Part shown: positions 61,659-63,695 of the stretch, in pieces
Numbering within the stretch: the first letter of the stretch is position 1
How the letters are laid out: each line of letters opens with the position of its first letter
Made by a program: the position numbers and the translations under genes
From: Escherichia coli
GTDB taxonomy: Bacteria; Pseudomonadota; Gammaproteobacteria; Enterobacterales; Enterobacteriaceae
Reading direction: 5' to 3' (one strand)
Length of the DNA stretch: 64,000 nucleotides
Assembly (NCBI RefSeq): GCF_016026235.1
Contig: NZ_CP065613.1
The notes under the pieces: model-generated
The model's database searches: none
Told to the model about the DNA's origin: nothing
The model's input: only the letters and a program-made list of their open reading frames with translations

Positions 61659-62492
61659 ATGGATAATGCTGTTGATCGCCACGTTTTTTATATTTCTGAT
61701 GGTACGGCAATAACTGCGGAGGTATTAGGACACGCAGTAATGTCACAATTTCCCGTCACTATCAGCAGCATTACGCTGCCGTTTGTCGAAAATGAGAGCC
61801 GTGCACGGGCAGTGAAGGATCAGATTGACGCAATTTATCACCAGACAGGCGTGCGCCCGCTGGTCTTCTACTCCATCGTGTTGCCGGAGATTCGCGCCAT
61901 CATCTTGCAAAGTGAAGGCTTTTGCCAGGATATCGTTCAGGCGCTGGTTGCCCCGCTACAACAAGAGATGAAACTGGATCCAACGCCGATTGCTCATCGT
62001 ACCCATGGCCTTAACCCTAATAATCTCAATAAATATGATGCGCGCATTGCGGCGATTGATTACACCCTCGCCCACGATGACGGCATTTCGTTGCGCAATC
62101 TGGATCAGGCTCAGGTGATCCTGCTCGGTGTTTCTCGCTGTGGTAAAACCCCCACCAGTCTGTATCTGGCAATGCAATTTGGTATCCGCGCGGCAAACTA
62201 CCCCTTTATTGCCGACGATATGGATAATCTGGTGCTACCCGCGTCGCTCAAACCGCTTCAGCATAAATTGTTCGGCCTGACTATCGACCCGGAACGTCTG
62301 GCGGCGATTCGCGAGGAACGTCGGGAGAACAGTCGCTATGCCTCGCTTCGTCAGTGCAGGATGGAAGTCGCGGAAGTGGAAGCCTTGTACCGTAAAAATC
62401 AGATCCCGTGGATTAACAGTACCAATTATTCGGTAGAAGAGATTGCCACCAAGATCCTCGATATCATGGGCCTTAGTCGCCGAATGTACTAG
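61659..62492 (+). CDS. ppsR: PEP synthase regulatory kinase/phosphorylase
   Basis: 277 aa; divergent from ppsA. Confidence 0.9.
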
Positions 62493-62503
62493 AGAACTAG
62501 TGC
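62486..62503 (+). promoter_or_regulatory. TrpR operator of aroH
   Basis: GTACTAGAGAACTAGTGC matches the TrpR operator palindrome (GTACTAG-N-CTAGTAC type); overlaps ppsR stop codon. Confidence 0.65.
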
Positions 62504-62648
62504 ATTAGCTTATTTTTTTGTTATCATGCTAACCACCCGGCGAGGTGTGACACACCTCGCACTTGAAATCAGCAGCGATTGGTTTATCGTGATGCGCATC
62601 ACTTCCCGGCAGTCCTGCCGTAGAAGCAACAAATTTCTGAGACTTGTA

Positions 62649-63695
62649 ATGAACAGAACTGACGAACTCCGTACTGCGCGTATTGAGAGCCTGGTAACGC
62701 CCGCCGAACTCGCGCTACGGTATCCCGTAACGCCTGGCGTCGCCACCCATGTCACCGACTCCCGCCGCAGAATTGAAAAAATACTGAATGGTGAAGATAA
62801 GCGACTGTTGGTCATTATTGGCCCCTGCTCGATCCACGATCTCACCGCTGCAATGGAGTACGCCACCCGTCTGCAGTCGCTGCGCAACCAGTACCAGTCA
62901 CGGCTGGAAATCGTAATGCGCACCTATTTTGAAAAACCACGAACTGTTGTCGGCTGGAAAGGGCTAATCTCCGATCCGGATTTAAACGGCAGCTATCGGG
63001 TAAATCACGGTCTGGAGCTGGCGCGCAAATTACTTTTACAGGTAAATGAGCTGGGCGTCCCAACCGCGACTGAGTTCCTCGATATGGTGACCGGTCAGTT
63101 TATTGCTGATTTAATCAGTTGGGGCGCGATTGGCGCACGTACTACCGAAAGTCAGATCCACCGTGAAATGGCTTCGGCACTCTCCTGTCCGGTAGGTTTT
63201 AAAAATGGTACCGATGGCAATACGCGGATTGCTGTGGATGCTATCCGCGCAGCCCGCGCCAGCCATATGTTCCTCTCGCCAGACAAAAATGGTCAGATGA
63301 CCATCTATCAGACCAGCGGCAACCCGTATGGCCACATTATTATGCGTGGCGGCAAAAAACCGAATTATCATGCCGATGATATCGCCGCAGCCTGCGATAC
63401 GCTGCACGAGTTTGATTTACCTGAACATCTGGTGGTGGATTTCAGCCACGGTAACTGCCAGAAGCAGCACCGTCGCCAGTTAGAAGTTTGTGAGGATATT
63501 TGTCAGCAAATCCGCAATGGCTCTACGGCGATTGCTGGAATTATGGCGGAAAGTTTCCTGCGCGAAGGAACGCAAAAAATCGTCGGCAGTCAGCCGCTCA
63601 CTTACGGTCAATCCATTACCGACCCGTGTCTGGGCTGGGAAGATACCGAACGCCTGGTCGAAAAACTCGCCTCTGCGGTAGATACCCGCTTCTGA
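62649..63695 (+). CDS. aroH: DAHP synthase, Trp-sensitive
   Basis: 348 aa from MNRTDELRTARIESLVTPAEL... Confidence 0.93.
   Translation: MNRTDELRTARIESLVTPAELALRYPVTPGVATHVTDSRRRIEKILNGEDKRLLVIIGPCSIHDLTAAMEYATRLQSLRNQYQSRLEIVMRTYFEKPRTVVGWKGLISDPDLNGSYRVNHGLELARKLLLQVNELGVPTATEFLDMVTGQFIADLISWGAIGARTTESQIHREMASALSCPVGFKNGTDGNTRIAVDAIRAARASHMFLSPDKNGQMTIYQTSGNPYGHIIMRGGKKPNYHADDIAAACDTLHEFDLPEHLVVDFSHGNCQKQHRRQLEVCEDICQQIRNGSTAIAGIMAESFLREGTQKIVGSQPLTYGQSITDPCLGWEDTERLVEKLASAVDTRF

What the first reader, a model, noticed from the sequence alone, without database searches (positions are those of the whole stretch)
62486..62503. TrpR operator of aroH overlaps the ppsR stop codon
The palindrome GTACTAGAGAACTAGTGC starts 4 bp before the ppsR TAG, so the end of one gene and the repressor site of the next share sequence.
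Basis: partly seen in the sequence, partly recalled or inferred. Interest (0 to 1): 0.2.

Follow-up and report, generated by a model that had tools for sequence, protein, structure and literature searches.

The report
aroH TrpR operator overlapping ppsR stop
The 18-bp palindrome is the long-known binding site of the tryptophan repressor in front of the E. coli aroH gene; its left half is made of the last codon and a third plus the stop codon of the upstream gene ppsR, an ordinary but neatly conserved case of one stretch of DNA doing two jobs.

Summary
Observation confirmed. GTACTAGAGAACTAGTGC lies at 62486-62503, and the ppsR stop TAG (62490-62492) is bases 5-7 of it. The window is E. coli ppsA/ppsR/aroH.

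The site is the best match in the 64-kb window to the trp operator (15/18). It holds 2 of the window's 11 CTAGs, the only pair 8 bp apart.

In 76 of 80 Enterobacteriaceae species, plus Klebsiella, ppsR ends ATG-TAC-TA(A/G) followed by N4-CTAGT. The Tyr277 codon is TAC in 77/77 sequences; only 2 of 194 comparable ppsR codons are that invariant. TGA is never the stop.

Serratia, Yersinia, Dickeya, Erwinia and Pantoea keep ppsR-aroH but have no TrpR box. There the last codon and the stop vary freely. The operator and its promoter (P1) are therefore an Enterobacteriaceae addition that reuses the ppsR end.

Caveat: published TSS-seq maps one aroH start, at 62598 (promoter P2), 104 bp downstream of the operator centre. 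TrpR can only occlude the operator-proximal P1 (predicted start ~62535), which rests on my recollection of the 1980s papers and on conservation.

A terminator reading of the palindrome is confined to two lineages and has no mapped 3' end.

Verdict: already known, low interest.

The parts
61659..62492 (+). ppsR (ydiA) coding sequence. The last codons are ...CGC CGA ATG TAC TAG (R R M Y stop), with the stop at 62490-62492.
   Evidence: ORF list; RefSeq annotation transferred from L001 and MG1655.
62486..62503 (.). Core TrpR operator GTACT-AGAGAACT-AGTGC. The left half-site GTACT is the last base of Met276, the whole Tyr277 codon and the first base of the stop. CTAG cores lie at 62489-92 and 62497-500.
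   Evidence: 15/18 to trpO, best in the window. Conserved in 76 of 80 species.
62483..62506 (.). Extended imperfect palindrome AATGTACTAG-AGAA-CTAGTGCATT. As RNA it folds into a hairpin of -13.7 kcal/mol.
   Evidence: Terminator-like hit; fold z-score -4.3.
62494..62511 (.). Second register shifted by 8 bp, GAACTAGTGCATTAGCTT (12/18 to trpO), centred on the second CTAG. It is a candidate tandem TrpR site.
   Evidence: palindrome I2. Tandem binding is from memory of the Kumamoto 1987 title and abstract.
62510..62519 (+). T-rich tract TTATTTTTTT. It is the spacer of promoter P1 and would be the U-tail if the palindrome acted as a ppsR terminator.
   Evidence: The tract is present only in Escherichia and the C. 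freundii complex.
62519..62527 (+). Promoter P1 extended -10, TGT-TATCAT. The predicted TSS is about 62534-62536, which places the operator at about -50 to -33 (the -35 region).
   Evidence: Read from the sequence. TATnAT is 80-90% conserved at a fixed distance from the operator in 77 species. The classical TSS is from memory and was not seen in TSS-seq.
62540..62560 (+). Perfect 10+10 inverted repeat GCGAGGTGTG-A-CACACCTCGC between P1 and P2.
   Evidence: I3; -15.6 kcal/mol. A stem at the same place with a different sequence occurs in about 27 of 70 species.
62563..62598 (+). Promoter P2, TTGAAA-16-TATCGT, with an experimentally mapped TSS at 62598 (51-nt 5'UTR). It lies outside the reach of the operator.
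   Evidence: Promoter scan. Kim et al. 2012 TSS-seq, 414 reads. Reporter design in PMC11878033. Conserved into other families.
62649..63695 (+). aroH coding sequence (Trp-sensitive DAHP synthase), the regulated gene.

Best explanation
The palindrome is the operator through which the tryptophan-activated repressor TrpR controls aroH.

Shown here:
- It is a GNACT-N8-AGTNC site next to a conserved -10 element (P1, TGTTATCAT at 62519-27).
- Its left half-site is built from ppsR's terminal Met-Tyr-stop (atG TAC TAG).

Inferred or from established knowledge: one or more holo-TrpR dimers bind here, possibly in tandem using the 8-bp-shifted register at 62494-62511. They cover about -50 to -33 of P1 and hinder RNA polymerase, lowering aroH transcription when tryptophan is plentiful.

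A second promoter, P2 (TSS 62598), lies 104 bp downstream of the operator centre and should escape TrpR. That would give basal aroH expression and explain why repression of aroH is only a few-fold.

Evolutionary reading (inferred from comparison): the C-terminus ...RRM[Y/F] of PpsR and promoter P2 are ancestral in Enterobacterales. In the ancestor of Enterobacteriaceae, a TrpR-controlled promoter arose in the short gap between the ppsR stop and P2. It used ATG-TAC-TAA as a ready-made left half-site. Since then that sequence has been under double constraint, both coding and repressor binding.
For: - Identity of the locus.
- Operator anatomy and rank. trpO was verified upstream of trpL.
- E. coli population: half-sites are invariant in the sampled alleles. 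The only change inside the 18-mer is the central G62494A in the most divergent allele, and polymorphism clusters just 3' at 62504-62513.
- Across species: 76 of 80 Enterobacteriaceae loci keep the ppsR end plus operator. G-T-A-C-T-A and CTAGT are 99-100% conserved while the spacer varies. Klebsiella has the same arrangement.
- Double constraint: Tyr277 is TAC in 77/77. Only 2 of 194 codons with an invariant degenerate amino acid are invariant, and it is the only one of 41 C/T-ending codons. The stop is TAA in 62 and TAG in 15, never TGA.
- Natural experiments: insertions in L040 and L077 carry a complete operator along with the aroH promoter. In L040 and L043, where the overlap is lost, the Tyr codon is TAT.
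- Outgroups keep the synteny but have no box (best 11/18 or less), and use TAT/TTT/TTC codons and TGA stops.
- P1 -10 conservation. The C. freundii complex lacks the P2 -35, so P1 must drive aroH there.
- Literature: TrpR represses aroH, and the interaction is restricted to close Enterobacteriales (PMC5343134).
Against: - The one TSS data set I could read (TEX-enriched, M9 glucose, no added Trp) reports a single aroH start, at 62598 (P2), and none near 62535. A recent reporter study uses the same 51-nt UTR.
- P1 has a poor -35 (about 2/6 by eye), and the consensus promoter scan did not call it.
- The footprinting and operator-constitutive mutant papers are not in the held library. TrpR contact with these exact bases, and the P1 start, therefore rest on my recollection of Zurawski 1981, Grove and Gunsalus 1987, Kumamoto 1987, Klig 1988 and the Harley-Reynolds promoter compilation.
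- In most genera the left CTAG is CTAA, so the left half is not an optimal palindrome.
Confidence: 0.9

Rival explanations
1. The palindrome is, or is also, the intrinsic terminator of ppsR. As RNA it forms a hairpin directly followed by UUAUUUUUUU, ending ppsR transcripts before they run into aroH.
For: The terminator scan flags exactly this site: 10 pairs, a 4-nt loop and a T-rich tail. The fold is -13.7 kcal/mol, z = -4.3, and outer G-C pairs bring the stem right up to the U-tract. The same geometry (stem of -11 kcal/mol or stronger, 7-9 U) is present in other Escherichia and in the C. freundii complex. No other terminator-like site lies between the ppsR stop and aroH.
Against: The stem is A/U-rich, with 3 G-C pairs. 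The U-tract is absent in most genera that conserve the palindrome perfectly (median stem -8 kcal/mol; 54 of 77 have 5 or fewer U in the next 10 nt). The conservation is therefore not explained by termination. The spacer (loop) and flanks vary while the GTACTA/CTAGT letters, not just the pairing, are fixed. The Term-seq tables of Adams 2021 that are held list no sense-strand 3' end for ppsR or the aroH leader, though ppsR is weakly expressed (one of its two TSSs has 7 reads).
Confidence: 0.12
2. TrpR bound on the ppsR stop acts mainly as a tryptophan-dependent roadblock to transcription coming from ppsR. The overlap would then couple ppsR 3'-end formation, or ppsR-aroH read-through, to tryptophan levels rather than serving only P1 occlusion.
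For: The geometry allows it, because the operator lies on the last 7 bp of the ppsR transcription unit. There is no conserved canonical terminator between ppsR and aroH in most genera. P1 was not detected by TSS-seq.
Against: ppsR promoters are weak relative to aroH P2 (7 reads at one ppsR TSS against 414), so read-through could contribute little. When insertions separate ppsR from aroH, the operator stays with the aroH promoter and not with the ppsR end (L040, L077). This points to promoter control. There is no direct evidence for roadblocking.
Confidence: 0.05
3. The palindrome is a chance feature of the ppsR 3' end, or the site of some other CTAG-recognising protein, and is unrelated to TrpR.
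For: The loose motif ACTAGNNNNCTAGT with up to 1 mismatch is expected 0.5 times per window. The left arm is partly dictated by the conserved PpsR C-terminus, which exists without any operator in other families.
Against: It is the unique best trpO match in 64 kb. The non-coding right arm CTAGT is 99-100% conserved in 77 species while its surroundings vary. Synonymous-site and stop-codon constraints appear only in lineages that have the right arm. There is no Rfam family and no repeat family. aroH is a documented TrpR target.
Confidence: 0.02

Closest known systems
E. coli aroH operator (aroHO), one of the five TrpR operators (trpEDCBA, trpR, aroH, mtr, aroL); Zurawski 1981, Grove and Gunsalus 1987, Kumamoto 1987, Klig 1988
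   Same: It is this very element. The locus is E. coli ppsR-aroH, and the sequence is the one I recall from those papers. It maps to MG1655 U00096.3 1,788,272-1,788,289.
   Different: Nothing differs in the element itself. The classical papers predate the naming of ydiA/ppsR, and as far as I could find they do not discuss the operator's left half being the end of a coding sequence. No held paper pairs ppsR or ydiA with aroH in this sense.
trpEDCBA operator (trpO)
   Same: GNACT-N8-AGTNC with two CTAGs 8 bp apart; 14-15 of 18 bases identical.
   Different: trpO overlaps the -10 and the start of its promoter, and lies well clear of any upstream coding sequence. The aroH site overlaps the -35 region of a weak promoter and the upstream gene's stop. 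From memory, aroH repression is only a few-fold.
Transcription-factor binding sites embedded in the 3' end of the upstream gene (overlapping or dual-use sequence in compact bacterial genomes)
   Same: The same DNA is read as codons plus a stop and as a repressor half-site. There is a measurable extra constraint on a synonymous site and on stop-codon choice.
   Different: Only 7 bp of the operator (one codon and a third, plus the stop) are shared. The protein is not altered by the operator.
Bifunctional terminator and promoter/operator regions (an intrinsic terminator hairpin that doubles as a protein-binding palindrome)
   Same: In E. coli the operator palindrome plus the P1 spacer T-tract has terminator geometry.
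   Different: The geometry is not conserved with the palindrome, and there is no mapped 3' end.

Membership tests
TrpR operator | Two inverted GNACT half-sites separated by 8 bp (equivalently, two CTAG-type cores 8 bp apart). | tested here: met
   GTACT-AGAGAACT-AGTGC at 62486-62503. CTAG at 62489 and 62497 is the only such pair in the window.
TrpR operator | Sequence similarity to the reference trp operator at least as good as that of the other accepted TrpR operators. | tested here: met
   15/18 to GAACTAGTTAACTAGTAC, which was verified upstream of trpL. Sites upstream of trpR, mtr and aroL score 13, 13 and 12.
TrpR operator | Lies within a promoter of a tryptophan-related gene, so that bound repressor excludes RNA polymerase. 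| tested here: inconclusive
   The operator abuts a conserved extended -10, P1 at 62519-27, and would cover about -50 to -33. However, TSS-seq maps only P2 at 62598, and the P1 start is recalled, not verified.
TrpR operator | Conserved upstream of orthologous target genes in species that have the regulatory interaction. | tested here: met
   Present in 76 of 80 Enterobacteriaceae species plus Klebsiella. Absent in Serratia, Yersinia, Dickeya, Erwinia and Pantoea. This agrees with the restricted distribution stated in PMC5343134.
TrpR operator | Specific binding by tryptophan-bound TrpR (footprint or EMSA). | not testable with these tools
   Kumamoto 1987 and Klig 1988 are cited in held papers but could not be read.
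TrpR operator | trpR- and tryptophan-dependent repression of the downstream gene in vivo. | not testable with these tools
   Stated for aroH in PMC5343134. A recent CRISPRi preprint lists trpR as an annotated regulator of aroH but gives no aroH-specific result in the text.
Rho-independent (intrinsic) terminator | A stable G+C-rich stem-loop immediately followed by a U-tract. | tested here: inconclusive
   The stem and U-tract geometry is present in E. coli, but the stem has only 3 G-C pairs; -13.7 kcal/mol.
Rho-independent (intrinsic) terminator | Hairpin plus U-tract conserved at orthologous gene ends. | tested here: not met
   The U-tract is found only in Escherichia and the C. freundii complex. 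Most genera keep the palindrome without it.
Rho-independent (intrinsic) terminator | An RNA 3' end mapped at the U-tract. | tested here: not met
   No sense-strand 3' end for ppsR or the aroH leader appears in the held Term-seq tables of Adams 2021. Caveat: ppsR expression is low.

The most novel reading that the evidence does not exclude
The overlap may be functional and not merely tolerated. In Enterobacteriaceae, TrpR sitting on the last 7 bp of ppsR would act as a tryptophan-dependent roadblock. In Escherichia and the C. freundii complex the palindrome RNA and its U-tract would add a weak terminator. How much ppsR transcription runs on into aroH would then depend on tryptophan, linking the regulator of PEP synthase to the PEP-consuming first step of aromatic synthesis.

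A milder version is well supported here. The operator's left half was exapted from a pre-existing coding end, and it now constrains a synonymous site and the choice of stop codon.
Probability: 0.07. Interest if true: 0.4.

Novelty: already known. Interest (0 to 1): 0.15.

Why it matters
It matters little for discovery, because this is the textbook aroH operator.

The useful by-products are small:
- A clean, quantified example of dual-use DNA. A repressor half-site freezes one synonymous codon position (2 of 194 codons are that invariant) and excludes TGA as the stop across more than 20 genera.
- A dated origin. The TrpR-controlled promoter P1 was added in Enterobacteriaceae upstream of an older promoter, P2, which other Enterobacterales families share. 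This explains why TrpR control of aroH is lineage-restricted and weak.
- A caution for annotators and engineers. The aroH TSS used in modern work (62598, 51-nt UTR) is not the promoter that TrpR controls. Silent edits at the end of ppsR could also alter aroH regulation.

Tried and rejected
- Literature. Seven full-text searches and direct look-ups of the classical papers found no held paper that prints the aroH operator or its coordinates. Reviews mention only that TrpR regulates aroH.
- TSS and 3'-end data. Thomason 2015 is not held. Conway 2014 has no supplements held. Mendoza-Vargas 2009 has no aroH entry. Kim 2012 gave the P2 TSS. Adams 2021 gave no sense 3' end.
- Rfam found nothing in 62300-62750, so a known RNA element is rejected.
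- Repeat or mobile element: rejected, because the 18-mer is unique in the window.
- The repeat finder with 6-nt seeds does not report the main palindrome. The single arm mismatch limits exact seeds to 5 nt. It reports the 8-bp-shifted register instead.
- The hairpin at 62540-60 as a universally conserved structure: rejected. It is present in only about 27 of 70 species.
- The terminator as the main explanation: rejected on conservation.
- The idea that the operator controls the mapped TSS at 62598: rejected on distance (104 bp).

Full report
**What is there**

The last 5 kb of the window is E. coli ppsA (minus strand), ppsR (61659-62492), aroH (62649-63695) and the start of hemP/ydiE. A 501-bp query across the site is found in 5,423 of 5,426 complete E. 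coli genomes, under ppsR and aroH annotations. MG1655 U00096.3 coordinate = window coordinate + 1,725,786.

The 18-mer GTACTAGAGAACTAGTGC occupies 62486-62503. As a strict palindrome the 18-mer is imperfect. The symmetric unit is AATGTACTAG-AGAA-CTAGTGCATT (62483-62506), complementary at 9 of 10 arm positions.

**Is it more than chance?**

Yes.
- The 18-mer is unique in the window even at 3 mismatches, with 0.01 expected.
- Against the trp operator GAACTAGTTAACTAGTAC it scores 15/18. I recalled that sequence and then verified it at 100% identity upstream of trpL in 5,421 genomes. The aroH site is the single best of about 128,000 18-mers on both strands; the next best is 13.
- CTAG occurs only 11 times in 64 kb, against about 250 expected from base composition. 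Two of the 11 lie in this site, and they are the only pair 8 bp apart.
- A deliberately loose pattern is not significant on its own. The argument rests on the full match and on conservation.

**Membership in the TrpR operator family**

I located the sites upstream of trpR (GTACTCTTTAGCGAGTAC), mtr (GTACTCGTGTACTGGTAC) and aroL (GTACTAGTTTGATGGTAT) in MG1655. All five share G-N-A-C-T ... G-T-N-C/T, and the aroH site is the closest to trpO.

A second register shifted by 8 bp (62494-62511; 12/18; palindrome I2) fits the multiple-sites behaviour in the title of Kumamoto et al. 1987. That paper is cited, but I could not read it.

No other TrpR-like box lies in the aroH leader. Held literature states that TrpR represses aroH and that this interaction is limited to a few close Enterobacteriales (PMC5343134).

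**Conservation within E. coli**

Nine distinct alleles were compared (the window plus 8 fetched; sampling included the most divergent match among 5,422 genomes). All keep both half-sites. The only change inside the 18-mer is the central G62494A in strain LR-28. Polymorphism clusters immediately 3', at 62504-62513.

**Conservation across species**

A PpsR-based scan returned 80 species of Enterobacteriaceae from more than 20 genera.
- In 76 of them ppsR ends ATG-TAC-TA(A/G), followed by a variable 4 bp and then CTAGT(A/G/T)C. aroH begins 126-172 bp after the stop.
- In the column statistics, G-T-A-C-T-A is 100% conserved, CTAG is 100%, the next T is 99%, and the spacer is nearly random.
- The stop is TAA in 62 sequences and TAG in 15 (Escherichia, the C. 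freundii complex, Franconibacter). It is never TGA. E. coli's TAG therefore makes the better palindrome but is the minority state.

**Double constraint on the ppsR end**

The synonymous third base of Tyr277 is C in 77 of 77 sequences, whereas the other five conserved Tyr codons in ppsR all vary. Of 194 ppsR codons whose degenerate amino acid is invariant, only 2 have an invariant codon: Q90 and Y277. Of 41 C/T-ending codons, Y277 is the only invariant one.

**Natural experiments**
- In L077 a 24-bp insertion follows the stop, and in L040 an insertion of about 207 bp does. In both, a complete operator (TGAACTAGTAAGCTAGTACA and CGTACTAACAAGCTAGTACA) sits next to the aroH -10 and not at the ppsR end.
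- In L040 the freed Tyr codon is TAT.
- In L043, TAC-TAA has become TAT-CAA. This extends PpsR by one residue and destroys the left half-site.
- In L047, aroH is no longer downstream, and ppsR still ends ...RRMY-TAA.

**Outgroups**

The PpsR C-terminus RRM(Y/F) is shared by Klebsiella, Serratia, Yersinia, Dickeya, Erwinia, Pantoea and Mixta. The order ppsA-ppsR-DAHP synthase is kept in all six loci fetched.

Klebsiella has the overlap (GTACTAACACACTAGTAC at offset -4). Serratia, Yersinia, Dickeya, Erwinia and Pantoea have no TrpR-like box (best 11/18 or less). They use TTC, TTT, TAT or TAC for the last codon and TGA or TAA as the stop. Serratia has a G+C-rich terminator-like hairpin right after the stop.

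The operator is therefore an Enterobacteriaceae acquisition that used a pre-existing coding end as its left half-site.

**Promoters: the main complication**

Next to the operator lies TGT-TATCAT (62519-27), an extended -10. Its TATnAT positions are 80-90% conserved at a fixed distance from the operator. I call this promoter P1.
- The predicted start is about 62534-62536, which puts the operator at about -50 to -33. That is the '-35 region' location I recall from Zurawski 1981 and Klig 1988, and from the Harley-Reynolds/UCI promoter entry 'AROH gtactagag...cccggcg' (-50 to +7). This is my own knowledge and is not verified here.
- The consensus promoter scan does not call P1. It calls TTGAAA-16-TATCGT instead (62563-90).
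- The TEX-enriched TSS-seq of Kim et al. 2012 (M9 glucose) lists a single aroH start. It is at NC_000913.2 position 1786408, which is window 62598, with 414 reads and a 51-nt UTR, 7 nt after that TATCGT.
- A 2025 reporter study uses the same 5' end.

This second promoter, P2, lies 104 bp downstream of the operator centre, so it cannot be occluded from there.

The block 62562-62612 is the best-conserved part of the intergenic region. It persists in Serratia, Yersinia, Erwinia and Pantoea, so P2 is the older promoter. The C. freundii complex has a 30-bp deletion that removes the P2 -35, so P1 must be functional at least there.

My model is that TrpR controls P1 only and that P2 gives TrpR-independent basal expression. 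The P1 start itself was not seen in the data I could read, and this is the chief weakness of the mechanistic account.

**Terminator rival**

The scan flags the operator palindrome plus AGC-TTATTTTTTT as terminator-like. The RNA fold is -13.7 kcal/mol (z = -4.3), with the stem running up to the U-tract. That geometry is confined to Escherichia and the C. freundii complex; most genera keep the palindrome with no U-tract. The letters are conserved, not merely the pairing. Held Term-seq tables list no sense 3' end there. I give a secondary terminator role in E. coli about 0.12 and reject it as the reason for conservation.

Rfam finds nothing in the region.

**Comparison with what is known, and verdict**

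This is the classical aroH operator, so the finding is already known. The overlap with the ppsR stop is a direct consequence of the annotation. As far as the held library shows, it has not been discussed.

What this work adds is modest:
- the extent and age of the overlap;
- the measurable synonymous-site and stop-codon constraint;
- the two-promoter architecture, with the modern TSS belonging to the promoter that TrpR does not control.

Interest is low.

Noticed in passing
window 62563-62598: A second aroH promoter, P2 (TTGAAA-16-TATCGT), has an experimentally mapped primary TSS at 62598 (Kim 2012, 414 reads). It is the only aroH TSS in that data set and the one used in recent reporter work. 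It lies 104 bp from the TrpR operator centre. It is conserved into Serratia, Yersinia, Erwinia and Pantoea, where no TrpR box exists.
   Followed up: partly
window 62589-62602: A perfect 14-bp palindrome, GTGATGCGCATCAC, spans the P2 -10 and +1. It has the form GTGA-N6-TCAC, like a CRP core. In other families it reads TGTGATCGCCATCACT (9 of 10 of TGTGA-N6-TCACA). Kosakonia and Phytobacter (L031, L032, L039) carry a second copy, TGTGATGCGCATCACA, about 50 bp upstream. This may be an unrecognised regulator site on the ancestral aroH promoter.
   Followed up: no
window 62540-62560: A perfect 10+10 inverted repeat (GCGAGGTGTG/CACACCTCGC, -15.6 kcal/mol) lies between P1 and P2. Stems of different sequence occupy the same place in Salmonella, Enterobacter, Lelliottia, Leclercia and Silvania (about 27 of 70 species), but not in Kluyvera, Cedecea or Buttiauxella. 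It has no U-tail. It may be a relic of the ancestral ppsR terminator or a 5' stem-loop of P1 transcripts.
   Followed up: partly
L014, L015, L017-L020, L023 (C. freundii complex), region equivalent to window 62545-62580: A 30-bp deletion removes the hairpin and the P2 -35. These are also TAG-stop lineages with a T-tract after the operator.
   Followed up: partly
L040:2335-2535 and L047:2335-2700: In a soil MAG and in Kosakonia sacchari, foreign DNA is inserted between ppsR and aroH. It shares a segment (...GCAGAAGCGGAGA(A/G)AGGCAAAGGA...) that looks like the end of a small Gly/Ala-rich gene on the opposite strand. In K. sacchari, aroH is no longer downstream of ppsR.
   Followed up: no
window about 61850-61915, minus strand: The Adams 2021 Term-seq table lists a strong antisense RNA 3' end inside ppsR (U00096.3 position 1787648, minus strand). 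The origin of that antisense transcript is unknown.
   Followed up: no
whole window: CTAG occurs 11 times in 64 kb against about 250 expected from base composition. This is the known enterobacterial CTAG avoidance, and it makes the double CTAG of the operator stand out.
   Followed up: yes
window 61926-61928 (ppsR codon Q90, CAG): This is the only other ppsR codon with a degenerate amino acid that is completely invariant in 77 species. It lies in the conserved FCQDIVQ motif. No explanation was sought.
   Followed up: no
L001 (E. coli ER1709), aroH: aroH is annotated as a frameshifted pseudogene in this K-12-derived strain, although the promoter and operator region is identical to the window.
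   Followed up: no
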